This document shows positions 1,428-60,530 of a stretch of DNA of 64,000 nucleotides, one piece after another. The stretch is taken from assembly GCA_964016885.1 (NCBI GenBank), contig OZ024741.1:300700001-300764000 (forward strand), read 5' to 3'. Position 1 is the stretch's first letter. Each line of letters begins with the position of its first letter. Origin of the DNA: Eledone cirrhosa. Taxonomy: Eukaryota. Position numbers and translations under genes: made by a program. The notes beneath the pieces are model-generated. The model ran no database searches and was not told the origin of the DNA. It worked only from the letters and a program-made list of their open reading frames with translations.

Positions 1428-1646
1428 CAGGCACACATACATATATGTACGTATCAGTTTTAGCGAACATTTATTATAATGTTCACTTTGTTCGTTTGTA
1501 AACAAACGGACAGCCTGATTTATGCCGTACGGTGTTAAGACAACCACGTAATCTTTTTGTTCAACACTGACACAGGAACGATGTACTAGTTTCAAGCTTG
1601 TTAGCTATCGTCAGCACCGTATACCCATCAGCCAGATGGTTGAACG
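1..1646 (-). repeat. Tandem array of ~450-520 bp units, each with a hammerhead ribozyme motif (retrozyme-like / tandem pLTR)
   Basis: The unit recurs at spacings of 459, 448 and 518 bp, varying mainly in an internal (TA)n. Hammerhead motifs lie on the minus strand at 153-196, 612-654, 1060-1102 and 1578-1620. The array continues off the left edge. Confidence 0.9.
1578..1620 (-). ncRNA. Type I minimal hammerhead ribozyme (canonical copy)
   Basis: Minus strand reads acggtg CTGACGA t-agct aaca agct-t GAAA ctag TA catcgt. Stem I is 6 bp with one GU, stem II is 4 bp, stem III is the palindrome ACTAGT, and the triplet is GUA. Confidence 0.85.
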
Positions 1647-1843
1647 TACGGTGCTCACGATAGCTAACAAGCTTGAAACTAGTACATCGTTCCTGTGTCA
1701 GTGTTGAACAAAAAGGTGACGTGGTTGCCTTAACACCGTACGGCATAAACAGGCTGTCCGTTTGTTTACAAACGAACAAAGCGAACATTATAATAAATGT
1801 TCGCTAAAACTGATACGTACATATATGTATGTGTGCCTATATG

Positions 1844-1941
<98 letters not shown>

Positions 1942-1993
1942 GCTACTGTACGTCTGTATACATATATGTATGTACATATACATACATACTTAC

Positions 1994-1995
<2 letters not shown>
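1647..1995 (+). repeat. Inverted partial copy of the array unit (foldback arm)
   Basis: Reverse complement of ~1283-1621 with a 25-nt spacer. It begins at hammerhead stem I (core mutated to CTCACGA) and ends in (TA)n. Confidence 0.9.
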
Positions 1996-2067
<72 letters not shown>

Positions 2068-2223
2068 TAAAATAACAGATTAAAGTTTAAGCAAAGAATC
2101 GCTGCTTTCACCCTTAACGGGATCTTCTGAAACTAACAAAGTCAATCTGTAAACGCAGAACTGGATATTTCAAAAAACCTTGCAACCGGAGGAAGACAGG
2201 AAGACGATACTTTGGCTCGTGGA

Positions 2224-2493
2224 AACGTTCGCTGGCAAAGAACGGGAAAAAACGTATAATACGTCAATAATAGGAGCGGTGAAAAACAATTACGCGCAAA
2301 GACAGAACAACGTTTATGGTATAAAAGAGGTCGTAGACTAATGTTCTCTTAGGTGGTGCATAGAGACGTTCTCTGGCAATGAACGAAAAAACGAAGATAA
2401 TAAGTCATATGTGGAGCGTGGAGAACAATAGCACGCAAAGACAAAACCACGTAAATGGTATAGCAGAAGTTGTAGACTAAAATTCTAACTAGG
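2224..2493. repeat. Diverged ~141-bp direct duplication
   Basis: acgttc(g/t)ctggcaa...cgcaaagaca...atggtata...gtagactaa occurs at 2224-2352 and 2365-2493. Confidence 0.75.
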
Positions 2494-2693
2494 AGACCAA
2501 ATGAATCTCCGCTACAGAGTTAAGAACAAAGTAAATAAATACAATACAGAAGTAATAGAAACAAATAAATACATACACGCAAACAGATACGTACATACAC
2601 AAGCATACGCAAAACCTTACGGTTCTTATATATTTGATATATATTTTCCTTATCGAGCCCTCTTTGGATTTTAGCCTTCAATTTTATTATTAT

Positions 2694-2773
<80 letters not shown>

Positions 2774-2938
2774 GAAGTTAACATTTAGTGTTAATCATTT
2801 TCTAACCCAGAAAAGAGAGAGAAACAAAACAGGAAAAAAATATATTTTCCTTCCTAATAATCCTCTCTTTCTCCCTGTTTTCATATATATATAAAGAAAG
2901 AAAAAGATGAAATCGAAAATGCAACTGGCGTCTTATTT

Positions 2939-3046
<108 letters not shown>

Positions 3047-3280
3047 GTCCTTTTAACGGTTTCGCAGTTTTCTGCTTTTCAAAAGTAGAGTTGAGATGGA
3101 GGGTCTGGTTTTTCCCACATCTGGTTGGTCTTTGAATGTTACTTGTTTTATATGGAAAAAAGTGGCTCACGAAGGCTTTTTTTTTATGTAATTTGATTGG
3201 TTATAAATGAAATTATGGCTGTGACGTGAACAAGTTCATTAAATTTATATATATATATATATAAAGAGATTGTAAACATG

Positions 3281-3411
3281 AAGGTTAATATGGAAATGGG
3301 TTCTACAGAACTAGAACTGTTTCATTCAAAAGAAATCGCGAGGGCTTCTCTGATGATTTCCTTTGAATGAAACAGTCCTAGCCCTGCGTAATCAATTTCT
3401 ATATTAACCTT
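3281..3411 (+). mobile_element. Small foldback with degenerate hammerhead
   Basis: Imperfect arms at 3281-3337 and 3355-3411. Hammerhead-like agggct..CTGATGA tttc cttt gaat GAAA cag TC ct agccct at 3341-3385. Confidence 0.6.
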
Positions 3412-4489
3412 GAGATTCTTCTAATGTGCTGAGTACCTTACTAACTCTGGTTACCTCCAATTGAACACATTCATACACAGTCACACACACAAACACACAC
3501 ACGTGCACGTGTGTGTGACTGTATGTGAGTGGTTATTTAATATTTCGGTTCATATCTTATATGTCACGTAAAATATGTGAATGCACAATGCATGAATAAA
3601 TATTTGTAAAGCTGTAGCAGGTAAAGAGATTAACTTTACTCAGGAAGTTAAATTCTAATTTTTCAATCTAAAGATTGTATATAATATTTTTGTTTTTGAT
3701 ATTGTTTCTGATCATATCATTATGAATTTGATCTAATTTCTCTTAGTTCTTCAGCTATTATTCTGTATTCCTGTCATGTTCCAGTAGCAGCGGTACACAA
3801 TATCTCGTCGCCATAAAATCAAATTAGTAACGATTACTATGCAAACCATTTTCCCAATACAAGTTAATTGTATGATTGCGTTCATGAGAGCGAAATGTTT
3901 TTTCGAAAATAAACATCTTATTAGCAGCCACGAAGTATGTTTTCTTGAATTTATTTGTTTATTAATTTTCCTTGCTTTCCTGTCGTCTGATGTGATTTTA
4001 TGAGTGTAAAATATTGCTTTTTCCTATTTCAACCTATTTACAAATCGAAATATGAAGAAGAGTCAATAAAACAATGTAGTGGTCTTCAAATGTTTCAAAG
4101 GTTCTCGAGCAAAACAAATCAAGTAAAATATGCCCAGTGTAAAATGAAATCAAGCCATAGATAATACACACGCCTGGAGCCAATACCTACACTGAAATAC
4201 GCTATATATATATACAAATATATATACGCTTTATATATATACAAATAATTAATTCGGGATTCTTTTATTTTCTTGAATTTTGTATTAAAATATGTGTATG
4301 CAAATTGAAGTGGCATACTGTGTAGTATATTTGAGCCATATACATTCATTAAGGTGGTGAATTGGCAGAATCATTATGCAAAGGAAATGTCTCTCTAGAT
4401 GGATCACGTATATGGTGCAAACAGAGAGTTTGAATACAAATCCTTCACTGCTGAAATCACTGCAGCCTTGGGTGCAGTGGTGAGAGTCA

Positions 4490-6334: not shown

Positions 6335-6533
6335 GCACACAGACTATATATATATATATATATACTCTTAGTAGAGTTTGCAGCTATCATATATATATAT
6401 ATATATTTATATAAAGATTTACATATATATATATATATATACATATATACATATACGTGTTTTGCAACGGGTCACTTTGTGGCTCAATGAAAAGTTAATA
6501 AATTAAATAATCAGAGCTATATATGATAAAAAC

Positions 6534-6730
6534 TGTCTATAGAATCACCAGATAAAATATATACCATTTCCTCTCCCAATTAGCATAATTAACCATATAA
6601 AAAATATTTGTTGGAGATTTCTTCATAGAAGCCTTATTCTTATAGCTTTGTCTATTCGATTTTTTATATGGTTAATTATGCTAATTGGGAGAGGAAATGG
6701 TATATATTTTATCTGGTGATTCTATAGACA
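6534..6730. repeat. Foldback: 72-bp inverted arms, 53-nt spacer, next to (TA)n
   Basis: 6534-6605 is the reverse complement of 6659-6730. Confidence 0.9.
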
Positions 6731-6824
6731 TGTTTTATGATATATATATATATATATATTTCGTTTCTGAATTTGTTTAGCAAGATTCTTTATCTTTATT
6801 GGCAACATGACCCTCCCAAAGTAT

Positions 6825-6888
<64 letters not shown>

Positions 6889-7041
6889 ATATATATATGA
6901 TAGCTGAAAACTGCTAAAAGTACTGCAATTGCTTAGAGGATTATAGAGTTTGGTGCAGATTTAGGCTACGGCCAGTCACACAAAACTGTTACATATCCTG
7001 AACAGGCAATGCCTGTGCTTTGAATGTTTTCTAAGTGGGGA

Positions 7042-8639: not shown

Positions 8640-8807
8640 TAAAGCGTCAGACACCATGCTTTGCAGCATAGAGTTATGACCCTTTACTTTCTGAGTTCAA
8701 ATCCCGCCGAGGTTAGCTTTGCTTCTCATTCTTACGGGGTCGATAAAATAAAGCATCAGTAATGTACTGGGGTAATTGCTGGCCTTGTGCCTAAAGTACA
8801 AACAATT
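8640..8807 (+). mobile_element. tRNA-derived SINE, family A
   Basis: B box GAGTTCAAATCCC followed by the shared body gccgaggt...tttgc.t.tcat.cttacggggtcgataaaataaag...gctggccttgtgcc. Confidence 0.85.
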
Positions 8808-10132
8808 ATTTAGAAAGGATCCGTCATTAATAAATTCCTACCGCTCCGTTTTACACGTTTTTCTCGATTCAATATTGGAAAAAGTTCCCGCGGCAAACAT
8901 TTACATGATTGTTTGAAATACTGGAAATATTACCCAAATTGTCTTGTCTTGGTGTATAACAAATATTACTTTGGTTAGTATGTATCTAGATAGGCCATAT
9001 CTAAAAGTAAATGACTTGGGTTATAAGGTATCTCGATCCGAATGTGATATATGGTTAACCAAGAAAACCAACTATAATTTAATTATGTAACTAAATATGA
9101 ATGGAATTATTGATTTACGAAACTTAAAAATTAAAAGGAATGAAAGTGGATTAATTTCCTCTGAGATTTGAAATTATATATCTGCAAACAGAACATTTAT
9201 ATATAAGATGTCTGAATTTGTCAGTAACGGATTTATATCGACTGAACGTCACAAATCATGATAAAAAGCATTCCATTCGATACTATATAACAAATATGAA
9301 ATATATTTGATTTTTATTCGTTCAATAGAGACAGAGATGATGTGAAAAGATAATTATAACATTCCTAATATCAATATTGATGCAGGTAAAGTTAAATGGC
9401 TCCAATTACGAATAAATTCACGCAACTGATTCATACCTTCATTTCTTTCTATATGTTTCCCGCTCCTCTCTCACTCACTCTTTCACTCACTAACACTGTC
9501 AATCGCTCTAATTGTAGCGCCCCTGGTTCAACTTCACATTGCTCCACTAGCGCTGATGATATGATTTAGATTTTACAATAAATATTATCAATATTCTAGA
9601 TAAAATATTGACTAAAAGATTTGCAATATATGAACTGCAGATATCGATAAACAGGGGTCAATGGCTTTGTAGCACGAAGTCTTTCAACATCAAATAACCA
9701 GTGCATAGTTTGCATCTTTGAATCGTTTGACGAAAGTATATCCTAATATAAATATTATGGGACTTTCAGAGATCTGAAATAGGCGCATTGTGTAAGTGAT
9801 GAAACAATTAAATCTATCTTGTAGTTGTTATTGTTGTTTAACCCAAAGCGAAATCATGATTTGTCAGATTTATTATCAAAGACATTTCAGCTATGTTCAT
9901 AACATTCTGACAACGATACTGAGGACTACATTAACTACAATGCAGCACTTTCTATTTTTATGTCTTTTGGTTTAGCAACACTTTATAATACTTCTTATAT
10001 AACACATCAAATATCGGGAACCAAATATTATCATAGATTCAGGTAGTAGGATGTTATCTCGGCTTCTACTAGCGCTATTTGAAAATATAATAGATAAATA
10101 CTGTATAGATATATATGTCAACTGGTCTCGCT

Positions 10133-16468: not shown

Positions 16469-17502
16469 CTTAGGTGTGTGCACAATACGAACTATGATGA
16501 GAGGATACAAAATATGTTTACTTCGGTGGGGTGTTCGAAACTATGTAGACATTTCTTGCGAAAGATAATTTATCATAAGTGATGACATGTCAACTAGCCC
16601 AGATCATACTTTTCATTGTGGATATGCCCATCCTCATTCCTCTTTATCACCATCAACAGCAGCTCCCGGTAATTTTCTTTTCTGTCGAATGTACTGCAAA
16701 TTATGATATATAACTATACATGCCATATATTCCCCCCACGACATTTTTTTAGACAATTCTCGTTTATATATTCGTTTTTGTCTTTATATTCGCATAACAT
16801 GAGTGTTGAATATTTCACATTGCTATTTTGAAACGCAATCCCATGACGTATAACCCACATTATTTTATGTATTGTTTGTTATCTGATCATTATATATTTA
16901 ACCACGTGATACTGGCTCCTGATTAGAAACTCATATGCGCTATATTTTATGTATGGCTCTTTTTTGTTCTTTTTAAATTGTAAACTATTTCAAGAGTTTT
17001 CCATCTAGGTATATAATTATAATGATTGACTGCAAAAGACTTATACTTACGAAGGTTGTATGACATATATTCGAATAAAACCAGTTAACTACAAAGATGA
17101 TACTTTGTAATGAATTATAAAAAGAAAAATTCCATAGACTGCGATTAAGATACGGCTTATATTCCTGTTAATTGACGCTCCCTTACATTTTAGATACATC
17201 ATTTTTTCTCATGCAAGACTATACATTTGTATGCGTATAAAATGACCATTGTTTCTTTTTTATTACCATAGTTGTTGTTTAAACCTTTTCTAACTGACCA
17301 AGGACACATAGGATTCGAAGATTCCCAACCTTTACCACTCTGTATTTTATCTTACATACTCCACTATAATTTTAATTAATTAGTAACTCATTTTTTAAGC
17401 GGATAACACAGACTACTAACCTCTAAAAACTCAAATGGGGAGTACCATGAACAAAGTGTCATAAAACGGGGAAAAATGAGGCCAAAATTGGAAGAATTTA
17501 TA

Positions 17503-17690
17503 TAATTGTTTCTACTTTTCGCACAAGGCCAGCAATTATTCCAGTGCATTACTGGTACTTTATTTTATCGACCCCGTAAGGATGAAAGGCAAAGTTAACC
17601 TCGGCGGGATTTGAACTCAGATCATAAAGGGAGGTAACTCTATGCTTCAAAGCATGGCGTCCGACCCTTACCGATACTGCCAATCCACAA
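17503..17690 (-). mobile_element. tRNA-derived SINE, family A
   Basis: Reverse complement of the family A body (ttttatcgaccccgtaaggatgaaaggcaaagttaacctcggcgggatttgaactc). Confidence 0.9.
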
Positions 17691-18310: not shown

Positions 18311-20243
18311 TTATATCAACAAAACTAGAATACGAAATATTTATCATGGGTATCAAACGGGTTTTATCAATTCTGCAAATCCAACTCCATTAAAAGGGTA
18401 TTTAATATTAACACTTATCAAAGTTGTTTATTGAAAAACTCTTAATGGTTTTGGACAAAATGCCTCGTGGTTATTATGTATGCCTTCATCTTTTGAATTT
18501 AAATTCAGAGTTCAATAACTTATGTTTCCTGAGAATAACTGAGATCAATCTTAATAGATTATATCAGACCTCAGAATTTGAATGAGTGGCTAAGATAGAA
18601 ATCAATAAGAAAGCCCTTCACACAACATTCATATATAGGCGCCACAACTAGTGACAGGTTTTTTTTCCTTATCCTCTTTTCTCTACATTGAATCGGCAAT
18701 TGTTTTATACCCTGCATACTCCGTTTATTAACAGTATTATTTATTAGATGCCAGTTGACTGAGACGATTGAATTCAATGCTATGAAAATTCACTTGAAGT
18801 CCTTAATAAAATAATTACCAGGCAGAAAGTCTGTAGATTAAATAACCAATACTACGTACACATTGGACATTGGAAGATTTGGGATATTACAAATACTCAC
18901 TGATAGAAATGTTTGAATTGTAATAAATAACACTTCCATCAATAGTACATTTGCTAAGAATACCAATCAAACGAAGGCTTTATTTTTACAATGAGTGTGT
19001 GATATCGTCCGACCGTAACATTGTTACTCATTAATCTAGAGATTACATATGTTTTACATGAACATTTACTACCTACAATGTTCTTTCCGGAATTGCCTAC
19101 GTAGAATACGTAAAGAACGGCTTATACATACTGACATTATCTTGAGACAGAAACAAGTATATAAATATATATAGAAAATCGGATAGATTTAATATCATTA
19201 TAAGCTGCATATGTTCAGCTATGTTTGGCGACATTCCAGTAAATTGCACACTTTCAACGGCATCAACATCTAATATCGGCAATAGACTGGATATTTAATT
19301 AATGACATGGATTACTGAAACAGCTGTTAGGTGTAGATTTGCTTAAAATACAATGGCGACTGATATCAGATTTTAAAAGAACTTTCAATTCATTTTTCGA
19401 ATTGTCATTGTAAAACTATTCTAGCTTTGTCTATTTACAGAATGTATATATAATCTATGCATTGTAAACCTTAACACAACTTCTTAACAAGAATTTAAAA
19501 TATACACAACTCCGTATAAACATAGGTCGTGGCGGTAGGCATGATAACGTGCAATATTCCAAAATGTGATTATAAATAATACATTGATAGAATCACAATT
19601 ATATGACGAAATGGGTGCATGCAAAAAAGCGTAAAGCGCACTGAATAGTTATTTTACGTGTATGATAGTGTCTTTATTTAGAGTAACTAGGTTGATTCAT
19701 TCTGAATGATGAGATGTGGATGAAGTATCTTTTGCATCCAGACTAAGATTGATTCATGAAATAAAAATACTTGTATAACACATTAAATGCTGCAATCTAA
19801 AAAGTATGGTTCTAATAAATCATTTAAAAATATCTTTCAACTTTAGAGAATTTGTTTCAGAAGTAGTGAAAGGAATTTATTTTTACTAATGAAATTTCTT
19901 CACAAATATTATCGTTTGCATTTAGAATTGATTATCTAAGATATGTTATATTTCAATTTCTATGCCAACAATAGCAACGGGATGAGGCTCATAACCACGT
20001 CTGTAGTTATCTTGACAAGATTGCATTCAACTGGTACCGGTTTTAGGTGGTCAGCGTTTTGTGAAGATTAAAATGTAAGGGCCACGTTCATTGTCTTGGG
20101 CACAGTGAAATGTATAATAATATATAAAATCTAACATATAGACCATTGCGGATATTTCGCACAACACGACAAATTGGTGTACGTCGTAATTAATTACGAT
20201 TGAAATAACAGAAACTAACCTAAAATGTATTTGGTTAGATAAC

Positions 20244-20422
20244 AATTGTCTCTACTTTTGGCACAACGCCAGCAATTGCCCGAGTGTTTTACTGGTACTT
20301 TATTTTATCGACCCCGTAATTATGAAAGGCAAAGTTAACCTCGGTGGGATATGAACTCAGATCATAAAGGGCCGTAACTCTATGCTGCAAAGCATGGCGT
20401 CAGACCCTCTCTTGATACTGCA
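20244..20422 (-). mobile_element. tRNA-derived SINE, family A
   Basis: Near-identical to 17503-17690. Confidence 0.9.
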
Positions 20423-21935: not shown

Positions 21936-24329
21936 ATGAGATGGAAAGCGTACCACTTTGACCGTGCGGTTGCTGCTGACGCCGGAAGTACAGCAAATAG
22001 ATATGGATTTGCCACATGCCAGAACCCCCCACACAACATCCTGCTGGACCCTTTTGAGAAAGATCTATTCAACTTCATCAGGAGCATTAAGTTCAAAAAG
22101 CATTATAGACACAGGAATAACTTCCTCACTACATTAGCAACAACTATAAAAAATTTAAGGATAGCAACCTCTTACATGTTATGTCTGACAAAACCAAAAG
22201 TCTATACACCATGACTCCTGAAATTTACAACTCTTTCCTTCTTAAAAAACTCAACAAAAACTATAAAAAAACTACACCCTCCAGTGTAAACGCACTTAAC
22301 CGAAAAGCCCAGGCTTTGGTTAAGGTCTTGCATTTGAATAGATTTACCCACCCTCATTTACCAACAACCCAGGGTTCTCTCTCAAGGACCACAAGCCAAA
22401 CTTTATAGAGAACCCATCCATTAGACTCATAATCCCAACCACATCTGACCTGGGCCGCATCAGTAAGAACATCCTTGATAGGATAATCCCTGGGCTACGG
22501 GATGATACCACCTACAAGTTGTGGTCCAACACCGGCCAAGTCATCAGATGGTTCTTTGATCTAAGGTCCAATCAATCTATGAGGTTCATCCAATTTGATA
22601 TAGACAGATATTACGCGTCAATAACCCCGGAACTGCTCAACAAAGCACTAGCCCTAGCAACCACCAACTCGGACATAACCAATAATGAGATTAACATCAT
22701 ACTCATGGCTAGGCAGACTATCATTGAATTCAACGGAGCACTCTGGACTAGAAAAGGTAGAACAGATAACTTTGACATTACGATGGACTCAAGTGACTCC
22801 GCGCAAGTCACCGATTTAGTTGGGATTTACCTATTACGTAACATCAGAGCCGAAATCCAACCCATGCAAGGTGGAATATACAGGGACGACGCCCTATTTG
22901 CAGTCCACAATTGCACTAATCGGGGAATCGATTTGCTTAAGAAACAATTTCATAGATTCTTCAAAAATAACGGTCTCTCTATCACCATCGAGCTGAACCA
23001 TAAAGTAGTAAACTTCCTGGACGTCACCCTTTATCTCAACAATAACCTTTATAACCCTTACCATAAACCAGGCGAAATACTCACATATATTAGCCCACAC
23101 TCTAACCACCCACCGGCAGTCATCAGAGCAGTAATCAAATATATCTCCTATAGGATGTCAATGCTATCAGCAAATGAAGAGATATTTATAAACCACGCAC
23201 AATATTATAATAAGGCTCTCTCTGAATCTGGATATAAACAATCAATTTATTACATACCAAAATGCCATAACACAGCAACTCACCATAATAAAATTAACAC
23301 TAGAACTAGAAATTCCTTAGCATATAGCCAGATTCGCCGGAATTTTAGCAGTAACAGCACCTATACAGGGAACTTTAATGGTGGCAGCGGCCTGCTCCCC
23401 ACTCCTAGTAGCAAACTAAGAATCAACCCTAGAATAGGAATGAGAAATGGGATAACAAATAACAAACCCCAGGTAATAATAACCCTAGGAAGGCCCCTAC
23501 CAACTGCACTAGAACCCCTAGAAGGAATAGGCCGAAAAATGTGACCTGGATTAACCCACCATTCTCATCTAATCTAGCCACTAATATCCCCAATCGCTTC
23601 TTCTCTATCCTATCCAAACACTTCCCCCCTAACCATAGATACTACAAACTCTTTAATAAAAACAACATTAAAATCTCATTCTCCACTACACCTAACCTAG
23701 CTAGCCACATCGCGTTCAGTAACCATCATAAGCTAAGACACTATAACTCCCACACCGCGGTACCACCACCCCTATCAAATACACCACACCACTACACCAA
23801 TAATTCCTCTAGTAGCACACCTCCACCATCTAATCCTTCTAGCACAGACCAACTGCTTAGGTTAAATAACCCTACTCTCACTAACCGCAGAAGCAACTGC
23901 AACTGCCGGTACCCCAATGCATGCCCATTAAATGGACACTGCCTGACGCCCAACATAGTCTATAGGTGCACAGGTGAGACTGCTTCGAATACCAGCTATT
24001 ATATCGGGTCTACCTCTAACCCTTTTAAGGTACGCTATAACGCGCACTCTTTTTCCTTCCGAGACCCTAGCAACAGATGTTCGACATCGCTAGCTAGGCT
24101 CATTAAAAACCTTAAATTAAACAAAGTTCAACACTCACTAAAATGGGATATCGTAGCTCGGGCCCAGCCGTTCAATGGACGAAGGAAATCTTGTGATCTC
24201 TGTGTTACGGAAGCATATTACTTAACTCTATCAAGACCTCTACCAATTTACGATAGAACGGAGTTAACCATTAGCTGTCAACATCGAAGGGCTAATTCCT
24301 TCGCCAATAGAGTTTTTGACCCAACTTAG
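21936..24329 (+). pseudogene. PLE reverse transcriptase + GIY-YIG endonuclease, frameshifted
   Basis: FIQFDIDRYYASI, FDITMDSSDSAQVTDLVG, GIYRDD, VNFLDVTL, SNHPP, WINPPFS, CNC..CPLNGHCL, IVY..YIGST..FKVRYNAH and CDLC. Frameshifts near 22180, 22380 and 23540. Confidence 0.9.
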
Positions 24330-25696: not shown

Positions 25697-26071
25697 ATAA
25701 AATATTAAACAAATAATGAATAAACAATTCCTTATATTAAACAAAAAAAGTTCATTATTTAACGATCGTTTCTAGGATATATATGTGTTATAATTGGTAT
25801 GCATATTCAACAGATCTATGTACAAAATTATACAAAATTATACAAATTATCAAGATTAAATATACATACCAAACACATATATACGCCGTCTGTGTTTGGT
25901 ATGTATATTTAATCTTGATAATTTGTATAATTTTGTATAATTTTGTACATAGATCTGTTGAATATGCATACCAATTATAACACATATATATCCTAGAAAC
26001 GATCGTTAAATAATGAACTTTTTTTGTTTAATATAAGGAATTGTTTATTCATTATTTGTTTAATATTTTAT
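25697..26071. repeat. Foldback: ~181-bp apparently perfect arms, 13-nt spacer
   Basis: 25697-25877 versus 25891-26071. The mirrored ORFs 25783(+) and 25788(-) reflect this. Confidence 0.95.
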
Positions 26072-26168: not shown

Positions 26169-26358
26169 GGTGAATTGGGCGGTGAATTGGCAGTATCGGT
26201 AGAGGCTCGGACATGCTTTCCAGCATAGTTACGTCCCTTTATGATCTGAGTTCAAATCCCGCCGAGGTTAACTTTGCCTTTCATCCTTACGGGGTCGATA
26301 AAATAAAGTACCAGTAATGTACTGGGTAATTGCTGGCCTTGTGCCAAAAGTAGAAACA
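26169..26358 (+). mobile_element. Full-length SINE family A with 16-bp TSD
   Basis: TSD attataatgaaatagt at 26153-26168 and 26359-26374. A box (tggcagtatcgg) and B box (gagttcaaatccc) are present. Confidence 0.95.
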
Positions 26359-26499
26359 ATTATAATGAAATAGTATGATAGAATATTAAATGTTAAGTCT
26401 TAATTGAACAAGTACTTTCATGCTTTCGCAATCTTCAGGTTCATAATGTGTGGTGACAGTCAAGTTGAAAATTGCAAACTTGACTGTCACCACACATTA

Positions 26500-26538
26500 T
26501 GAACCTGAAGATTGCGAAAGCATGAAAGTACTTGTTCA
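26500..26538 (+). ncRNA. Type I minimal hammerhead (mirror copy at 26405-26443, minus)
   Basis: tgaac CTGAAGA t-tgc gaaa gca-t GAAA gtac TT gttca. Stem I is 5 bp, stem II is GAAA-capped, and stem III is palindromic AAGTACTT. Confidence 0.8.
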
Positions 26539-26700
26539 ATTCACACTTAACATTTAATATTCTATCATACTATTTCATTATAATACCATTATAAATTTTA
26601 AAGGATTGTAAATAAAACGAGTAAATCAGACAAAGTTGGAATTCCTCTTATTAATATAATCTTCTATACACAATCATACACACCCGTGTATATTTATCTA

Positions 26701-28335: not shown

Positions 28336-30799
28336 AAAGAAAATAAACATAATATTCAAAAATACATGTCACTGGGGACTATAAAAAACATGAAAGACAA
28401 ACCATACCACTTATCAATCGAAGGACTGAAACATATTGCTTTTAGAAACCATAAGAAACTAAACAAACGTCGTGTCTCCCTTTCTGTTATTGCACCCCTA
28501 CCATTTAACCCTTTGAATTCTCCCTTTAGAATTTAATCGCTGCTAGCGGACAACTCAGGCAAATTACTTTTTGTTTGAAAATTTTCTCTGGCGATTTGAG
28601 ATTTTCACAGCTCATATTGAATTTTGCTCAATGAAAATGCAGTAGGGACGCTGAATAAATAGATATAGATAAATATTTCTTCATCTTATTTGCGTTTCCC
28701 AAATTAATTTGTATATATATATATATGTGGGGGGGGGGTGTATGTGTGGGTGCATGTGTGTGTGGTAAACAGAAATAGAAAAGTAAATGGCACAGTACAA
28801 TGATGAAATATATTAAATTAACGCGTGAATTAATAGGAAATGAGTCTTAACGTTTCGGACACTAGTCTGTTATCCGAAGATAACATGAGACATTTTTCCG
28901 ACATATAATACCCTACTTTACATAATATACATTTTGTATACATTTTGCGCCAAAACACAGGGAATTATTTGAAAAAACTATTTCGTTAATTCATATAACT
29001 TAATGGTATCTCACAACATCTATATTATATGATAGTTATATAAGACTGTTTTAGAATAAATGAACTTGGAACACTTTGCAAAGTAAATGAAAATAACCAC
29101 CATAGGATTAAATGAAATAATTCCTTACAATAATAAGTCTAATCTGGGAATATAAATTATCAGCTAAATATCTGTAAAATAGGGGTATTGGATATCTACC
29201 TATATTAGCTTTCATTAACCCAAATACATATATATATTAGATTTACCTGATGCACGGTCCAATGACAATTATTTTAATTTATTTTTAAAATAATTATAAC
29301 GTTTTCAGTCATTGTATAAGGCTACTTATGAATAGAAGTACAGGTGTGGGCAGAATATCGAACGTAGGTAGCAAGAATCATCAATGATATTATGGTCATG
29401 TATGTAACATTCAGTCACTGTTATATTCCCTTTTGTCTATTAAAGTAGCCTTTGTAATTTTCTTTGCTGTAAATTCTATTTTGTTTTCTCTTATTCTAGA
29501 TCTCAGAATTCACTCAAAGCAATATTTTACAATATTTATTATAGGTAAACGTAATTATATCATCATATTTCAGAATGTTATAAATACGTACTTAAAAAAA
29601 TACAAACTGTATGTTATGTATTGGTACAGTCCATATAACCCACTAAGTCATTTGCGTAATTAGGTTACTGAAATTTTCCCATGTCTTGTAGGATGCACTC
29701 CGTTTCCAATAACTCATTCCGCCTTGTTTAGTCCTGTCTAAGCTGATTGTGTATAGGATTAGTTTATGCTCAATGTAGCCAAATAATTGAAACGTTTGGA
29801 AACGAACACTATACTTACAAGTTAATCAAATTAAACGTTGTTTAAATATGATGTAGATGACCGCCTGCGTTTTTGTTTTTTTTATGTTCACAATTTTGTA
29901 GGTAAAAGATATATACAGCAAATGACAGCTACATCTAACGTGAGTGGCATGAACTCGTTGATAACATAACTTTGCATTCTTGTCGGGCCCACACATTCGG
30001 CACTGTGACATGTTGGCTTTCGAAAAGGTCAGGAAAACACACCTGCTTTTAAAGATGTTTGTCCCGGGTGTTGCCAAATTGTCCCGAATGATTTTTGACT
30101 TGAGATGTTTCCTAAATGAATTTGAGATATTTCAGCAGCTCTGTGTAGATTCCCGATATTTATTTCAGCAGTCTGATTTTTATTTTACCACATCTATTGT
30201 AATGTCATTGTCTTTGTATATGAACAACATTAACCTGATGTGATTAAAGTGTATAATCATCAATACAGACTTTAATGAAATCGTATAATAGCTGCTGCTG
30301 TGGAAAAAGAGGGCTATATGTTTTATTTTAAATATAGATACAAATATACACACCTGTCAACTTTCACCGTTGGACGGGGAGATCTCACACCCACTTCGTG
30401 GTGGGTGAGAGATATCTTCTCTTGTGAAAATGAGTATAGCTTTCATTATGTAAAATCTCATCATTTTGTTTCATTTTTCATGGTAATTCCCGTTTGGGAA
30501 TTAAGAGGTTGGTAGAGAATTAATGTCCATACCGATACATATATATTATATAAATATCCTTGTTGACTAATATATATTCCTTTGATACATTCATTTACGC
30601 AATGAATCATATCTTTTATCAATGAAAAGTACAACAGGCTATTTTAAACATGCATCTAATACCAATTCAAGAGTATCAGAAAACCTTTCCGTAAAATGCA
30701 CATGAATAGCTAGGGTCAATAACTCGAGGGAGGGCATGAGCAACCACAAACATTCAAACTAATGTACCTTTAAACAAACTGTCAAATCAGGAACATATA

Positions 30800-31275
30800 T
30801 GTATATGTATTTGAATTTCTTATTTCTAAAGAAATACGGTATGTTTATATATAAACATTTAGAAAGACGTATCTATGCTAAAGCACTAGCAGCTAACGCC
30901 ACCCAGCGGTGTCCAGCAGGAGCAAGTGGGACAATCGTTGATGAATTTCGAACAGCTATGTTTGAAGCTAAATTCTAATTCTATTCTATTATATGTTGAG
31001 CCAACTTATACAGCTTCATATACAAATGAGATTAATAACTTCATTTACACAGACGAAAAAAACTATATATTTTCAAAGTCTAAGAGCGGAAGTGATCGTC
31101 CTGACGAGAATCAATTCAGTTCGAAACGCGTCGACGATTGTCTCCCTTACTGCTGCTGGACACCGCTAGGTGGCGTTAGCTGCTAGTATTGATACACAGC
31201 GTATTTTTTTAGAAATATGAAATTCAAGTACATATTTCTATACAGCTATGTTCAAAGCTAAATTCTAATTCTATT
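30800..31275 (+). mobile_element. 290-bp hammerhead unit with partial tandem repeat and inverted 5' arm
   Basis: 30952-30985 recurs at 31242-31275. 30885-30953 is inverted to 31119-31187, and 30803-30838 is inverted to 31200-31236. Confidence 0.85.
31092..31141 (+). ncRNA. Type I minimal hammerhead ribozyme, intact consensus
   Basis: gtgatcgtc CTGACGA gaat caattca gttc GAAA cgcg TC gacgattgt, with a GUC triplet and palindromic ACGCGT. Confidence 0.9.
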
Positions 31276-31575
31276 ATATATATATATATGTTTTCTCTTT
31301 TCTTCTCTTTTCCCTTTTATTTTCCTTCCCTTCTATTTTCCTTCCCTCCCTGATCCGTTTTCCCAATAACTTACACAATCATTGAACGCTGTGGGCGGTT
31401 TGTGGGCGGTAGATATCTTGTCTTTAAAGTGTGAAAATATCCAAGACCCCAGTAGACAACTGATGATGAAAGCCCCCCCCCCCCCACGTTCTTGCTTTCT
31501 TCTTATTCTCACTCCATTTTAAACTACCTTAACTACCAACTATTCTCCATATATATATATATATATATATATATA

Positions 31576-32330
31576 CTAGTAGAATGGCCCGGCGTTGCCC
31601 GGGCTTCTAAACATAGATTGGCATGTTTATCCCTCCTTTCTGAAAAAGTACAGAGAAGTACGGAATACCCCGGCCTGGGGATGGTGTCTACATTGTGTGC
31701 TAATAAAAATAATTCGTCGTAGATTACCAGGGGTTTAAATTAATTGGGTGCCTGAGAGTAAAATGTTCAACCCACGAAAGCCAAGACGATAGGGTTAAGT
31801 CAAAAGGCATTCGACAAACCAAGCATGTATTTGTTGTGCTATAGTACAATAAAAGTTACAGAGCAGTAAGCATGTGGGACTGCAGTGGTGGATAGCATGA
31901 ACCAATTTAGTTGGATACGTTTACGGTTACAAAAATCTACCCAATCTGTTATAGACCGGACTGTTATATCGGATGCCGAACGCTTCGGAGTTACTATCGG
32001 GGTCACCATCAACAATTTCAAGGGATGTACGTTTAAGTAGGGATAATATAGTCTATAAAGAGAGGTAACTCTTTCAAAATACTAATGAGGTGTCTCTCTT
32101 GAACATTGAAAACAAAATTACCGCACTGACAAATACGGCTTAAGGTTTTAGTGAAAAAAACGACTTTGACAACAGAGAATTTAAAAATAAAAGCTGCAGT
32201 GAATATCTTTAGACCGCAAGGAACATATAAATGCAAGTTTGAAGTCAATCAGAGTAGAAATGTGGATTTGTATAGACTTTCCAAAATTAGGACACACACA
32301 CAGACAATTTCAGTTTTATATATATATATA
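31576..32330 (-). mobile_element. Non-autonomous Helitron
   Basis: The minus-strand 3' end has a GC hairpin (gcccgg-gcaacg-ccgggc, 31587-31604), then CTAG, then T. The 5' end runs into (TA)n followed by aaaactgaaattgtc(tg)n; a terminal TC is not seen. Confidence 0.75.
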
Positions 32331-34202: not shown

Positions 34203-34547
34203 AATGTTTCTATATTTGGCGCAAGTCCAGCAATTTGAAAGGAAGGGGAAAGTCGTTTAAATTGACCTCATATCATAAAGGCTCTTAACTCTATGCTACA
34301 CAACATGGTGTCCGACGCTCTACAGATACTGCTAATCCACCGCCCTTCAAAAACTAACAATTTTGGAGGAGGGCAAAATCGATTAAATCAACCGCAATGA
34401 ATTACTGCTACTATGTATCATCAACCCATTAAAGATGAATGACAAAGCTAACCTCGGCGGAACTTGAACTCAGAACATAAAGGACCGTAACTATATGCTT
34501 TAAAGCATGTCGTCCGACGCTCTACCGTTATTTCCAATCCCCCGCCT
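34203..34547 (-). mobile_element. Two adjacent diverged SINE family A copies
   Basis: Family A body (aaagctaacctcggcggaacttgaactcag; tccgacgctctac) occurs twice. Confidence 0.75.
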
Positions 34548-34559
34548 TTATAATACTAA

Positions 34560-34790
34560 TAATAATATTTTATTGGCCACAAGGGCCTACATATAGGGAG
34601 CTATACTATAGACAAGGGCAGTAGGTGGTTTACAAGAAAATCGAGTAAAAACAAATAAAGAAATAACAATAAACAAAGAATTACCACAATGAAAATTGAC
34701 CAATAGTGAGTAAGAACCCCCACCAGGGACAACTCAGGAACCCCACCAATTTTGAATCACCCGGCACTCCAAGAGCGTACAAAGAGGGTG
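34560..34790 (-). mobile_element. L1-Tx1 3' end fragment
   Basis: Minus strand cccttgtggccaataaa resembles cccttgtggttaataaa at ~52721 and is followed by an ATT-rich tail. Confidence 0.6.
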
Positions 34791-40191: not shown

Positions 40192-40380
40192 AATTGTTTC
40201 TACTTTATGCACAAGGTCAGCAATATTGGATGGAAGGGAAAAGTCGATTAAATCGATCCCTGTGCATTATTGGTGCTTTAGTTATCGACCACGTAAAGAT
40301 GAAAGGCACAGCTAATCTCGGCGGTATTTGAAATCAGAACGTAAAGAGCGATAACTGTATGCTGCAAAACATAGTGTCTG
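40192..40380 (-). mobile_element. SINE family A
   Basis: gttatcgaccacgtaaagatgaaaggcacagctaatctcggcggtatttgaaatcag. Confidence 0.8.
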
Positions 40381-45987: not shown

Positions 45988-46172
45988 GGTGGATTGGCAG
46001 TATCGGTAGAGGGTCAGACACCATGTTTTCCAGCATAATTACGTCCCTTTACGATCTGAGTTCAAATCCCGCCGAGGTTGACTTTGCCTTTCATCTTTAT
46101 GGGGTCGATAAAATAAAGTACCAGTAATTCACTGGGTAATTGCTGGCCTTGTGCCTAAAGTAGAAACAATTA
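45988..46172 (+). mobile_element. Full-length SINE family A
   Basis: A and B boxes and body as at 26169. Flanked by acaattatta(t) on both sides. Confidence 0.9.
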
Positions 46173-46249
46173 TTATGGTGTTGTTGTTGGCTATGTTTGA
46201 CCGGGTCACTAAATCAGTCTATTTATATCTTTTGGTAGCTATCTCCTTT

Positions 46250-49900: not shown

Positions 49901-52742
49901 CTTACTAGCGCGCAAGGGCTACAGAGAACGTATTAGCGAACTAGTTAAGCGGACGTTGACGGGGGCCATCGTCAACAACAAATGGTGGTTTGCTCTGAAA
50001 AGAGCCATTAGAATATAGTCCATTAGTTTAGTAAGGCTTTAGCTATAGAGAAAAATAGAGCAGAGGGAGAACTAGTTAGAAAATTAGCAAAGGCATCGCG
50101 ACGTCCGTCGCGATGCCTTTGCGAAATTGGCCCTTGACCAATTCTTCAATGCAAAGCACGAAGGCTGTGTTGTCAGAGCTAGGGTGCGTGCTCTCAGACA
50201 CGCGGGAGCGAAAGCCGTTGAATGGGCTCGAGTGGCGGAGGCGCGTCGTGGCAACAAATCCACGATCCAGTCTCTGCTGGACCACGACGGGCGCATGCTA
50301 CTCGATCCCGGGCAAATGTGTGAAGCTTTTCAGCGACACTTCGCACGGCTGTTCGGGCGCAGCGGCGGGCCAGATCGAGAGATGGACTTCAGTGTCTACC
50401 TCTACGGACTGCCGCAGCTCTCGGCCAGTGAGGCGGAGTGTTGCGAAAAGCCGATAACAGCCGCTGAAGTACGCGAGGCAATGACAGGCTGCACAAGGGG
50501 TAAATCGCCTGGATTGGATAGTCTGCCCTATGAACTTTACGTACAGATGCCACACTTGTTCGGAGGCCTCTTGGCGGACGTCTACTGCAACTGGCAACAG
50601 AACCGGAGAATTCCCAGCTCTGTGAGCCGAGGAGCTGTGGCGCTGCTGAGAAAGGATCCGAACCAGGGGAATATCATAGATAATTTCAGGCCCATAACTC
50701 GGTTAAACACAGAGTTCAAGATTTTGGCCAAGGTGCTAGCAAAGAGGTTGGCGCTTGTCGTTGGTGGTCTGGTGGGAGAGGCTCAGACATGCGCCATTCC
50801 CGACAGATCCATCCACGACAACCTCCACCTCATGCTATACATCGTAGAGAGGGTAGCTAGGGAACCTGGCACGGGTGGGTCCCTGATCAATTTCGAAAGC
50901 TTTCTATAGGGTCGACCATCGTCACCTAGCGGCAGTCCTGAGGGCGGCTGGCTTTGGGCCCGTCTTCAGAAGCTGGATCGCTGCCATGCACAGCGACATC
51001 TGCTCTGTGGTGAGAGTGAACGGTCACCTTTCGGAACCGTTCAACCGCCAAGGATGTCCCCTCTCGTCCCTCTTGTACGTATTGACTCTCTAGCCATTAC
51101 TGCACGAACTGGAGAAGTTGAGGGGGGTCCCGCGCGAACTAGGATGCGGTAGATCCGTGTCAGAATATGCGGACGATGTCACCGTAGTGGTGTCGAACGC
51201 CAAACACATCGAGGCGATCGGCACTACACTAAGAGAATACGAAGCGGTGACAGGAACAATGATCAACCAGGAAAAGTCAGTGGGCCTGCAGCTCGGCACC
51301 TGGAGAGACAGGTCCATGCCGTCCAACAGCGTCGTCGGGCGCTGGACGGACGACCAGTTAAATTGCTAGCGGTCTGGTTCGGTCCGGACCTCCAGACGGA
51401 CAAAAACTGGGACGAGGTGACGAGCAGGGTGGCTTCTCTCACCCAGAAATGGGTGGAGAGGAAGATATCCCTGAAAGGTCGAGCGGAGGTGGCTAACGCG
51501 TTCATCGCGTCCGTCATCTACTACCGCCTGACCGTCGTACCTTGTCCTAAGCCCCCCCCCCCCCCTTACTGCGCTGGAGCGTTTTCTCTTTCGCTTTTTG
51601 TGGAAGGGACGCGCTCCGATTGTCAGGCGGTCCATCTGCTGTCAACACCCGTTACGTGTAGGGCTGGGCATGCCGTGGCTGATGAAGCGCAGACACGCGC
51701 TCTCGCAACAACATCTCCACTTTCTTCCTCGACGTGAACAGGTGAGGTCGCAGTTTGCTAGACGCGTCTCTCCCGAGCTCGTCTCCTTGACGGAGCTGCA
51801 GTCCTGGGTCAAGCGAAGACCGAGACGGTGCGCTTGGAGAATGGAATGTCTTAAGGCGCTCACAGCCCTCGACCAATCGGGCAATGTGATCGGTGGAAAC
51901 TCCACCCTGGCGTTCTATAGAGGATTAGTGGAGGGGAAGAGCTACGACGTACTTGGAGAAACTCTAGGCGTCGACGAAAATCAACTAGCCAATCTCTTCG
52001 GAAGAACTTCCGGGCTGGGGCCTATGGGCAACTTTCAGAAATCCCTGGCCTGGCAGTGCTACAGAGGAGCTTTGCCAGTTCGGGATAAACTCTACAGGCA
52101 TGGAGGTGCCGTCAGCCGGGCATGTCCGAGATGCGCGCAGGGCGACGAAACCGTCCTGCACGCACTCGTCCAGTGTCCGAGCATTGCTGACTTGTGGGTT
52201 ATATGTCGAACACGTGTAGGACGGATCCAGCTATCAGCTGAGTCCATCGTGAGGATTTCCCCGCCCTCTTCCTTTAGCCGGGAAGGGCAGGCAGTTTTTA
52301 TCTGTCTGGTGGCCATGGCAAAAGAGATAGTATGGTGGACACGTTTGAAAGGGCTGAAGACGAGCACTTACCTTTTCAGTGATGCCCTGATTAACTTTTT
52401 CAAATTTCATTTGAAAAGGAAAATCAGGGTAGAGAGGGAAGTGCTCTCTTCCCAGCATTTTGTTGAAAGATGGGTGAGAGAAGCAAGTATGTAAATTAAA
52501 GGTGGAAAACTGGGAGAGGGCACTTGCCCTGGTGGTCAGGGTCACTGTGGCCTTTTAATGGGCTTTCTCCACAAATGTCCGTCGGAAGTCTCCCCCCTAT
52601 TGGGGAATTTTTCATTGTTATTTTTTGTTACATCCTGTCTTTGTTTTTTTCCACGCAGAAATGCCCATTTGTACCGTCCTGTATTGTCCTGTACTGTCCT
52701 TAATGTCTAATTTATGTAAACCCTTGTGGTTAATAAAGAAAG
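46965..52742 (+). mobile_element. L1-Tx1 clade LINE, near full length, decayed
   Basis: ORF1 with a degenerate knuckle (RKPRCVVYGKGTHLKAFCP), ORF2, a 3' AATAAA and (ATT)n on both flanks. The 5' boundary is uncertain. Confidence 0.85.
49155..52494 (+). pseudogene. Tx1 ORF2: APE endonuclease, RT, C-terminal zinc motif
   Basis: SINARGL, ISET, VAVYAP, YLDR, TDH, GKSPGLDSLPYE, NFRPITRLN, RQGCPLS, YADDV and CPRC..ETVLHALVQCP, with stops and frameshifts. Confidence 0.92.
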
Positions 52743-57678: not shown

Positions 57679-57741
<63 letters not shown>

Positions 57742-57746
<5 letters not shown>

Positions 57747-60507
57747 ACAGGAGGCTGGACTGGGGAAATCCTTGAAAGGTTTATTATACTATGATCATTT
57801 CAATAACCGGGTTCCATATGAATCTGGTGATATCATCAGGTATTGGAATATAACAAAGGAATGTGTAAAAAGCGATGGGTCCGAAAAACCATGGGTCCGA
57901 GAAACCAGAGACAGAGAGGGCGGCCGATCAACTAGCTTCTCAGCCAGCCGCCCTCAAAGTGTTGGCAACCGAAAACTACCAGTGAATATCTGGTAAGGGG
58001 GGCGCAGGCTTATCATGTACTACCACCACGCCGTCAAAGAAGAAGGGGAAAAAAGAAAGAAAGGGAGAAAGAAGTGTAGTGTAAGGGTCAAACTACATTC
58101 ATGTTAGAAAATGCCGTGAAAAAAATGCTACCCAAAGAATCTATAGTGGGTGTCTGTATGGTCTAATGTGTGAACCGAAGATTGGAACGTTTAACCTATG
58201 TTGCGATTTATAGGATGAAATAAATTAAATTAAAAATATTATATTGCAAAATGGTAAATTGAAAAATAGAGGTAGCGAGATTTATTTATTTAACGAACTT
58301 ACGGAGAGAATCTTATATGAAAAATTTTTTTTTTTTATTTAACTCGATAAGATATTAGGATGGGATATAGAGTAAAGATTTCGATTGGGAGTCCCAGCCA
58401 GCACACCCACCACCATGCGTCAGCCAGTCTCGAGTGGTATCGTCCAGCGAAAGAAATGGAAATTAATTTTTCCGAGTACTCTAGGAACGTAGCTAACTTT
58501 GGCCCCGGGATCGCTAGCGGGAAGCCCACAATTTCGACAGGCCATCGTCTATACCACGAATACTATTTATTAAATCACACATTAGGGGGGGGGGGTATTT
58601 ACGTGTCAATAGAGGCATGATACAGCTAATAGTTGTGCCCAAACCTGGAGTTTGTGGGTACAGGTATAATTAGGCGGCCAAAACAGGTGGCGCGGTGGGA
58701 CTGGAGCAGAGCAAGCCACTCCGAGTAATTTCATTTACCTAAAGAGGAGAAATTTATTTTTCCGAGCACTCAAGGAAGGCTGAACTTTCCGAGTGCCCAG
58801 CGCGCAGCCGGGAAAAAGCCACCACTCAAGTCAAACAATGAAAAGTGCAAATAGATCAAAATTATTTTAAATTATTTTAAAGTCCTAGTTAGTCCGCGTT
58901 ATAGGTAGTGTGGTTCTTAGGTGGGTAGGGGGCTATGAAGGTGCATAATGACCTGAGTAAGGAAAAGTTACTAAAAAATACCAATACATTGATAAAAATA
59001 TATTAATAAAATAATAGAAAATAATAAAATAATAAAATATACATTAATGAGATAGTAAAAAAATTAATAAAGGTAAATAAGAGTCAATATAGATCAAGTT
59101 GTAGTAAGATAATATAAGTTGTACATATAGATACAGATATATAGGATGGAGGAGATGGAATGGTAACAGATTGTACCTAGTATAAAGTTCGGGTTCCGAA
59201 TTCAGTGCGAGTCACAAAAAGTCCTGAGGTATAGAGTAGAGAATACAGTCAATACAATACAAGCTTTAGTATAATACGTAGAGTTTTGTCCGAATCGGAA
59301 TCCTTCCGACAAGGAAGTGGTATCAGGTGGCGGTAGATAAGGCGCAGAGCAGCCAAAGTCCGAATGGCAAGTAGATCAGTTAATCCCATGCTGGTAATAG
59401 CTGTACACTGAAGTCAGTGCCGCTGTTCAATATTACATTTTGAAGTGCTCAACATTATAGGAGCATTATTTCTTAAGGTTTGTTGGTTCACCACTGGATA
59501 GAACTGGTCATTCCGTATGGTCAATCCTGGTGTAATATTGTGAAGAGTACTCAACGCAGTGCAGTTTACCCACCTTCGTTTGTGTAGTTGGTGGTGCGAA
59601 TACGGAGTTAATTATAAATTAAATAACAGGAGGCTGGACTGGTGTAAATCCTTGAAAGGTTTATTATACTATGATCATTTCAATGAAGGGTTCCATATGA
59701 ATGCTGGCTGGGACTCCCAATCGAAATCTTTACTCTATATCCCATCCTAATATCTTATCGAGTTAAATAAAGAAAATTTTTTTCATATCAGATTCTCTCC
59801 GTAAGTTCGTTAAATAAATAAATCTCGCTACCTCTATTTTTCAATTTACCATTTTGCAATATATTTTTAATTTAATTTATTTCATCCTATAACTCGCAAC
59901 ATAAGTTTAACGTTCCAATCTTCGGTTCACACATTAGACCATACAGACACCCACTATAGATTCTTTGGGTAGCATTTTTTTCGCGGCATTTTCTAACATG
60001 AATGTAGTTTGACCCTTACACTACACTTGTTTCTCCCTTTCTTTCTTTTTTCACCTTCTTCTTTGACGGAGTGGTGGTAGTACATGATAGGCCTGCGCCC
60101 CCTGACCAGATATTCACTGGTAGTTTTTGGTTGCCAACACTGTGAGGGCGGCTGGCTGAGAAGCTAGTTGATCGGCCGCCCTCTCTGTCTCTGGTTTCTC
60201 GGACCCATGGTTTTTCGGACCCATGGCTTTTTACACATTCCTTTGTTATATTCCAATACCTGATGATATCACCGGATTCATATGGAACCCGGTCATTGAA
60301 ATGATCATAGTATAATAAACCTTTCAAGGATTTACCCCAGTCCAGCCTCCTGTTATTTAATTTATAATTAACTCCGTATTCGTACCACCAACTACACAAA
60401 CGAAGATGTGTGAACTGCACTGCGTTGAGTACTCTTCACAATATTACACCAGGATTGAACATACGGAATGACCAGTTCTATCCAGTGGTGAACCAACAAA
60501 CCTTAAG

Positions 60508-60508: not shown

Positions 60509-60530
<22 letters not shown>

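What the first reader, a model, noticed from the sequence alone, without database searches (positions are those of the whole stretch)
30800..31275. 290-nt retrozyme-sized unit with the cleanest hammerhead in the window
The direct repeat at 30952/31242 defines a 290-bp period holding one fully canonical hammerhead (GUC). A partial second unit ends in (TA)n, and the inverted arm starts within stem II. The size fits the few-hundred-nt monomers known for animal non-LTR retrozymes.
Basis: partly seen in the sequence, partly recalled or inferred. Interest (0 to 1): 0.75.

Follow-up and report, generated by a model that had tools for sequence, protein, structure and literature searches.

The report
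Decayed Penelope-type hammerhead retrozyme copy
This is one old, partly deleted copy of a 340-base non-coding repeat that carries a predicted self-cutting RNA motif and is scattered, likely in thousands of copies, through this animal genome, likely pasted in by a Penelope-type jumping-gene enzyme; the kind is known, and this copy is predicted to be inactive.

Summary
The repeat, hammerhead motif and inverted arm are real, but 290 nt is not the unit. The locus is a decayed copy of a dispersed family (2,109-3,972 search candidates in a 3.0-Gb genome) whose period is about 341 nt (median of 54 loci). The window copy is the shortest, having lost about 53 nt. Its GUC/ACGCGU site is private: the family has AUC/AUGCAU. 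Its stem II is weakened, and its own inverted arm is predicted to block the fold. Helix III is a 6-nt palindrome, the dimer-dependent type. No array over 2.1 units was seen in 81 loci. Copies end at two fixed sites about 44 nt apart next to (TA)n/(CA)n. In two-armed insertions, including this one, the arms use different sites (13 of 15, P=0.004). That is the Penelope 'tail' footprint. Two copies are fused to 5'-truncated RT+GIY-YIG Penelope-like elements. Verdict: new family of a known kind (animal non-LTR retrozyme / non-autonomous Penelope-like element). No RNA evidence was obtainable. The scan had already noted other such families elsewhere in this genome.

The parts
30803..30953 (-). Inverted arm: family unit from the 3' strand of hammerhead stem II (phase 229) round to end site A (phase 38); keeps the 34-nt piece deleted from the forward arm; its outer end abuts a TA-rich run at about 30796-30802
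30952..31279 (+). Forward arm: phase 45 round to end site B (about phase 80-86); about 1.1 units of the deleted monomer
30952..31241 (+). The 290-bp period = about 341-nt family monomer minus deletions of about 10, 9 and 34 nt
31092..31141 (+). Type I hammerhead motif: stem I 31092-31100/31133-31141, core CTGACGA 31101-31107, stem II 31108-31111/31119-31122 (last pair U.G), GAAA 31123-31126, predicted cleavage after 31132
31126..31131 (+). Palindromic helix III ACGCGT; private double transition from family ATGCAT (C at unit position 237 and G at 240 each in 1 of 71 units)
31187..31200 (+). Site of the main deletion (14 nt here in place of 48 nt in the inverted arm)
31242..31279 (+). Terminal repeat = the roughly 44-nt 'tail' between end sites A and B
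31273..31290 (.). (TA)n run at the forward 3' end, the likely target

Best explanation
This is an old, internally deleted, likely inactive copy of a dispersed ~340-nt non-coding hammerhead-motif repeat (animal non-LTR retrozyme type), likely inserted by a borrowed Penelope-like reverse transcriptase/GIY-YIG endonuclease. Shown: family, period, fixed ends, microsatellite neighbours, two-armed geometry, deletions. Inferred: source copies with two hammerheads were transcribed and cut as hammerhead dimers (palindromic helix III) into unit-length, probably circularised RNA. A Penelope-like protein nicked both strands of a (TA)n/(CA)n site and primed cDNA at two sites about 44 nt apart on the RNA, one per strand. 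This gave a forward arm ending at site B and an inverted arm ending at site A, joined by a 2-nt overlap. Copying past the start point gave the more-than-unit length. The copy then decayed neutrally; it has one whole hammerhead, which is predicted to be masked by its own inverted arm.
For: Family: 2,109 and 3,972 first-look candidates; 77 exact matches of a 33-nt hammerhead pattern, 0 for the reversed control. Homology among 30 loci is confined to the unit, tandem or inverted. Period median 341. Forward 3' ends fall at A in 43, B in 24 and elsewhere in 14 of 81 loci. A dinucleotide run follows the end in 54 of 81, against 474 of 4,050 random flank positions. An inverted arm adjoins the 5' start in 32 of 81. 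Where both arms end at A or B, they differ in 13 of 15 (binomial P=0.004, Fisher P=0.01). A CX4CxxC + GIY-YIG Penelope-like family in this genome shows the same two ends about 43 nt apart (alignment of 25 ends read by eye; Pfam RVT_1 and GIY-YIG). L008 and L088 fuse the unit directly to 5'-truncated copies of that element, with no upstream part within 5 kb and 3 kb. Natural 340/342-nt monomers fold better than shuffles as circles (z -4.0, -3.6); the 290-mer does not (z -1.5). The hammerhead core is intact in 36 of 71 units, against 34.2 expected from neutral decay. Literature: two RT start sites define the tail and both strands are extended (PMC11167929); partial tandems, inverted 5' copies and microsatellite bias (PMC8557442); palindromic helix III needs dimers (PMC4209133); retrozymes derive from PLE pLTRs (10.64898/2026.07.22.740005).
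Against: No expression, cleavage or circle evidence. No long arrays (maximum 716 nt in 81 loci), unlike coral or axolotl retrozymes, so a linear tandem template or template jumping explains more-than-unit copies as well as a circle does. The unit shows no real sequence similarity to the 3' end or pLTR of the candidate partner (only AT-rich matches, best E=0.008 on a TA run). The genome also holds other Penelope-like RTs, so the partner is not pinned down. In 17 of 32 loci with an inverted arm, at least one end is at neither fixed site. The two fusions end near a minor third end site (phase about 0-7, also seen in L079, L146, L149) and could be independent insertions. In vitro, the anole element showed no difference in start site between strands, and hammerhead cleavage was not needed for insertion (PMC11167929). 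Loci were sampled by best similarity or exact motif, not at random.
Confidence: 0.8

Rival explanations
1. The unit is just the pseudo-LTR (3' end plus tail) of an autonomous Penelope-like element not yet found, and the copies are 5'-truncated insertions of it.
For: Most PLE hammerheads occur as single, dispersed, truncated copies (PMC4209133). The order hammerhead, then two RT start sites 130-175 nt downstream, resembles the anole element (PMC11167929). Two copies sit right in front of a PLE ORF.
Against: In the sampled loci the sequence upstream of the hammerhead and downstream of site B is more unit, not ORF. The ORF family fused in L008/L088 has its own different 5' region (no unit in 29 of 29 other 5' loci) and its own different 3' end. 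tblastn of natural PLE stretches found no endonuclease end running into the unit in 81 loci. Only 40 candidates per search are scored, so a rare parent is not excluded.
Confidence: 0.1
2. One reading: an active 290-nt retrozyme monomer whose GUC hammerhead cleaves and gives a 290-nt circular RNA.
For: Core letters intact, stem I predicted at probability above 0.9 without the arm. ACGCGU would pair between two molecules more strongly than AUGCAU (-7.5 vs -4.7 kcal/mol), so an isolated fragment might cleave as a dimer in vitro.
Against: The 290 period is unique among 54. There is one whole hammerhead only. Stem II probability is 0.02, and stem I falls to 0.0 when the inverted arm is included. 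Arm and forward copy are only 87% identical. The circle folds no better than shuffles (z -1.5).
Confidence: 0.04
3. A DNA-level repeat (satellite relic or MITE-like palindrome) spread by recombination or DNA transposition, with the hammerhead a passenger.
For: Inverted arms give a palindrome. No A>G excess that would mark RNA editing (123 A>G vs 147 T>C, P=0.71). The core is not under visible selection.
Against: 5' starts are variable while 3' ends are fixed. The arms have unequal length and phase, there are no constant terminal inverted repeats and no arrays, and 3' ends abut microsatellites. These are marks of target-primed reverse transcription.
Confidence: 0.06

Closest known systems
Metazoan non-LTR retrozymes (Cervera and de la Pena 2020, PMC7229834: passages and parts 2 and 4 of 6 read; Li, Clavereau and Pollet 2026, bioRxiv 10.64898/2026.07.22.740005: parts 1-3 of 5 read)
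   Same: Non-coding 150-450-nt unit, GC below 45% (0.36-0.38), type I hammerhead, head-to-tail permutation, monomer-dominated families are described, PLEs co-occur and are the proposed mobiliser.
   Different: No array above 2.1 units in the sample; this locus fails the preprint's 'active' criterion (two complete hammerheads); helix III is a bare palindrome; no loop-loop contact, RNA or circle shown; two-armed A/B end geometry is not described in the parts read.
Penelope-like elements with GIY-YIG endonuclease: pLTR, tail and inverted 5' copy (Craig et al. 2021, PMC8557442: passages read; Frangieh et al. 2024, PMC11167929: parts 1-2 of 4 read)
   Same: Partial tandems, inverted 5' copy, 30-45-nt tail between two RT start sites, AT-rich/microsatellite targets, hammerhead upstream of the tail.
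   Different: No ORF; no sequence link to the pLTR of the local CX4CxxC (Neptune/Nematis-type linker) family; here the two arms use different start sites, which the in vitro study did not see.
PLE minimal / dimeric type I hammerheads (Cervera and de la Pena 2014, PMC4209133: parts 1-2 of 4 read)
   Same: Short palindromic helix III that needs a second ribozyme; G10.1-C11.1 pair; low expected monomer activity.
   Different: Stem II is 4 bp and stem I 7-9 bp with no extra base between positions 9 and 10.1, i.e. closer to that paper's 'canonical metazoan' type I than to its min-HHR (stem II 7-8 bp, stem I 4-5 bp).

Membership tests
Metazoan non-LTR retrozyme | Type I hammerhead motif in each unit | tested here: met
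   Motif in window; core pattern in 57 of 99 unit positions (set partly chosen by the motif); no Rfam match
Metazoan non-LTR retrozyme | Non-coding unit of 150-450 nt, low GC, no LTR | tested here: met
   Median 341 nt, GC 0.36-0.38; no ORF of 120 aa or more at the locus
Metazoan non-LTR retrozyme | Head-to-tail tandem organisation (dimers to multimers) | tested here: inconclusive
   Family: two hammerhead positions in 20 of 81 loci (3 of the 30 motif-picked loci), maximum 2.1 units, no multimers. Window locus: one whole hammerhead, so not met for this copy.
Metazoan non-LTR retrozyme | Expressed as linear and circular monomers | not testable with these tools
   No RNA holder listed; the two runs laid were contigs of unrecorded kind
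Metazoan non-LTR retrozyme | Self-cleavage in vitro | not testable with these tools
   Folding predictions only
Non-autonomous Penelope-like element | Two fixed 3' ends 30-45 nt apart (tail), variable 5' starts | tested here: met
   A 43, B 24, other 14 of 81; starts spread over all phases
Non-autonomous Penelope-like element | Inverted 5' copy and microsatellite target | tested here: met
   32 of 81 inverted; 54 of 81 next to dinucleotide runs vs 11.7% of control positions
Non-autonomous Penelope-like element | Sequence similarity to the 3' end/pLTR of an autonomous partner | tested here: inconclusive
   Not similar to the two pLTR/3' ends compared; pLTRs of other local PLE families were not compared
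Autonomous Penelope-like element | ORF with RT and GIY-YIG endonuclease | tested here: not met
   None in the unit or running into it at a shared breakpoint

The most novel reading that the evidence does not exclude
Penelope-like integration is a coupled two-primer event: one protein dimer primes both strands of the break at two different RNA sites (A on one strand, B on the other), most likely on one circular RNA. The local CX4CxxC Penelope enzyme copies this unrelated 340-nt ribozyme RNA and can jump onto it mid-synthesis, which would tie an animal retrozyme directly to its mobiliser without shared sequence.
Probability: 0.4. Interest if true: 0.55.

Novelty: new member of a known kind. Interest (0 to 1): 0.27.

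Why it matters
The locus itself is an ordinary dead copy. The family adds genomic support for a link the literature proposes but has not shown directly in the parts I read: that animal retrozymes are mobilised by Penelope-like enzymes. The opposite-site rule for the two arms and the two retrozyme-PLE fusions give a cheap, specific test for the existing in vitro PLE system: does each strand use its own start site, and does the enzyme accept a circular, non-homologous RNA?

Tried and rejected
Rfam: no hit at gathering threshold in the window and no hammerhead at E<=10 in 30700-31400. Expression: no RNA holder listed; this is not evidence either way. The two runs laid were contigs of one sample and unrecorded kind; they match the left flank and part of the inverted arm without differences, but no listed piece spans the hammerhead or the deletion. 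Unit as 5' part of the CX4CxxC PLE: rejected, since no other of 30 5' loci carries it and most continue upstream in PLE sequence. Unit as that PLE's 3' end: rejected. ACGCGT as an ancestral state lost by CpG decay: rejected, since C and G each occur in 1 of 71 units. RNA-editing scars (a lead from note e1-8803865): no A>G excess in 158 segments. Enrichment of units near PLE copies (L057, L089, L103, L105, L190): seen, but units also cluster near each other, so not used as evidence. First classification of arm ends was not significant (8 of 11 discordant, Fisher P=0.24) because alignments ran on into TA repeats. The rule was then changed after seeing the data, so that ends at 45-55 count as site A and the last HSP end is used; the P values should be read with that in mind. 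Within-locus vs between-locus identity of tandem units (0.87 vs 0.83, 18 loci) does not separate a circular from a tandem template. Literature: the search for octopus + hammerhead ribozyme + Penelope listed only PMC8557442; five paper searches in all. No supplements were read; those of the 2026 preprint and PMC7229834 may list related families. Nine of 90 fetched unit loci were dropped as duplicates; L083/L084 are probably one duplicated insertion but were counted as two.

Full report
Observation. The sequence shows a 38-nt direct repeat at 30952 and 31242, 92% identical, and two inverted matches, 30885-30953/31119-31187 (87%) and 30796-30851/31187-31242 (80%). A type I hammerhead motif lies at 31092-31141 with predicted cleavage after GTC 31132. 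It is the only hit in the window under my scans, with 0 hits in each of 30 locally shuffled windows. Rfam did not recognise it. Helix III is only the palindrome ACGCGU, which cannot close as a monomer; such motifs are described as working in dimers (PMC4209133, parts 1-2 read).

The family. The window lies in a 3.0-Gb animal genome. The unit had 2,109 first-look candidates, a natural 1.65-unit query 3,972, and an exact 33-nt hammerhead pattern 77 matches against 0 for its reversed control; candidates are not copy numbers. I fetched 90 loci (30 per search), dropped 9 duplicates and analysed 81; they were chosen by best score or exact motif, so the sample is biased. Shared sequence among the first 30 is confined to the unit. 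The period could be measured in 54 of 81: median 341, range 290-348, with the window shortest. Against a natural 343-nt unit the window copy lacks about 10, 9 and 34 nt, and its own inverted arm still carries the 34-nt piece. The longest same-strand run was 716 nt. Two hammerhead positions occur in 20 of 81 loci, but in only 3 of the 30 motif-picked ones. So this is a dispersed family of 0.5-2.1-unit insertions, not an array.

The hammerhead of this copy. In 71 units not chosen by the motif, helix III is ATGCAT with an AUC triplet; the window's C and G each occur once. The core is intact in 36 of 71, as neutral decay predicts (34.2). Stem II is predicted at probability 0.02 here and 0.94 in a family-type copy. 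With the inverted arm included, the whole region folds into one long hairpin (-186.6 kcal/mol) and stem I falls to 0.0. Natural 340/342-nt monomers fold as circles better than shuffles (z -4.0, -3.6), the 290-mer does not (z -1.5; 40 shuffles each). Tandem units within loci are 79-94% identical, so the sampled family looks old. These are predictions; no cleavage was tested.

Insertion footprint. With phases counted on a natural 340-nt unit from L088, 5' starts are spread over all phases, whereas forward 3' ends fall at site A (about 35-38) in 43, site B (about 77-86) in 24 and elsewhere in 14 of 81. A dinucleotide run follows in 54 of 81, against 474 of 4,050 control positions. An inverted arm adjoins the start in 32 of 81. 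In 15 of these both arms end at A or B, and 13 of the 15 use one site each (binomial P=0.004; Fisher P=0.01). A first, stricter classification gave 8 of 11, not significant, and the rule was adjusted afterwards for run-on into TA repeats. The window is a B/A case: the 'partial second unit' is the tail between A and B. Frangieh et al. showed in vitro that a PLE protein cuts and extends both strands and starts at two internal RNA sites that delimit the genomic tail; they saw no strand difference in start site and no need for hammerhead cleavage (PMC11167929). Craig et al. describe partial tandems, inverted 5' copies, 30-40-bp tails and microsatellite bias as PLE traits (PMC8557442, passages).

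The likely mobiliser. L008 continues from the unit into the 3' half of an RT + GIY-YIG ORF with a CX4CxxC linker, and L088 into a longer 5'-truncated copy. Pfam gave RVT_1 (E=1e-6, just under its cut-off) and GIY-YIG (E=3e-5, above cut-off) for natural stretches of a relative. The linker marks Neptune or Nematis by PMC8557442; I did not build a tree. The unit is neither the 5' part of this element (absent from the 29 other 5' loci) nor its 3' end, which has its own variant hammerhead-like motif and two ends about 43 nt apart. No sequence similarity links the two. The missing upstream PLE sequence is absent within 5 kb and 3 kb. Template switching is my preferred reading of the fusions, but both junctions lie near a minor third end site with a few TA-rich letters, so separate insertion is possible. 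Other PLE-like RTs exist in the genome. I put about 55% on this family being the partner.

Mechanism, shown and inferred. Shown: family, period, deletions, fixed ends, targets, arm geometry, fusions. Inferred: transcription of two-hammerhead source loci, dimer cleavage, circularisation (by analogy with PMC7229834, parts 2 and 4 read), two-site priming by a PLE protein. A linear tandem template is not excluded. No RNA holder was listed, so expression is open.

Comparison and novelty. It works like, and on the testable features belongs with, animal non-LTR retrozymes read as non-autonomous PLE derivatives (10.64898/2026.07.22.740005, parts 1-3 read). This locus fails that preprint's criterion for an active element. 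Notes on other families in this genome (308-600 nt) describe the same two-armed, two-site footprint; they are unchecked AI notes. They prompted my paired-end count and the editing test, which was negative here. Those notes call the host a cephalopod; I did not verify it.

Verdict. Real feature, new family of a known kind, dead copy; interest 0.27. The most novel surviving reading (coupled priming of the two strands at different sites by a non-homologous PLE partner) has probability about 0.4 and would merit about 0.55.

Noticed in passing
window 60530-64000 and beyond (L193 = G000:C2:300761001-300770000): An apparently full-length copy of the CX4CxxC RT+GIY-YIG Penelope-like family: inverted arm about 60530-60982, upstream repeat about 60982-61430, ORF region from about 61430 to L193:4065, and the repeat again from about L193:5220. 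The ORF is broken by stops and frameshifts.
   Followed up: partly
window 22342-24329 (+): Two ORFs (400 and 288 aa stop-to-stop) with no Pfam hit that match another RT-like ORF in L031 at 38-50%; a second Penelope-like family. The label 'Naiad-like' would be from recall and was not tested.
   Followed up: partly
window 1-1998: 448-bp tandem (3 copies, 93%) with an inverted counterpart at 1342-1998 around (TA)n: a two-armed repeat; no hammerhead passed my scan there.
   Followed up: no
window 57734-60512, 25697-26071, 26359-26584, 6363-6922: Further palindromic or two-armed repeats, 94-97% identical arms in the first three, 74% in the last.
   Followed up: no
window 8640-8812, 17500-17690, 20240-20421, 26180-26367, 30353-30450, 34395-34563, 40258-40380, 45988-46177: A dispersed repeat of about 180 bp, eight or more copies in the window at 76-92% identity; very high contig depth at 30400-30500.
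   Followed up: no
window 31575-31800: Another high-copy repeat starts right after the (TA)n at 31549-31575, with a short GC-rich palindrome near its start; resembles non-autonomous Helitron-type ends (recalled, untested).
   Followed up: no
window 51532-52494 (+): LINE remnant with zf-RVT (PF13966, E=1.3e-8).
   Followed up: no
L168-L192, about 170-200 nt into the aligned 3' end: The CX4CxxC PLE family carries a hammerhead-like motif with a variant first core (ATGAAGA in most copies), 4-bp stem II, palindrome ACCGGT and GUA triplet.
   Followed up: partly
L103:6736-7668 (-); L091:299; L094:1161; L088 about 7700: At least four other hammerhead-motif families in the fetched loci, including three motifs spaced 466 bp apart in L103.
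   Followed up: no
L083/L084 (G000:C2:306917364 and 306922464): Two 1.7-unit copies 5.1 kb apart, 98% alike, likely a local duplication.
   Followed up: no
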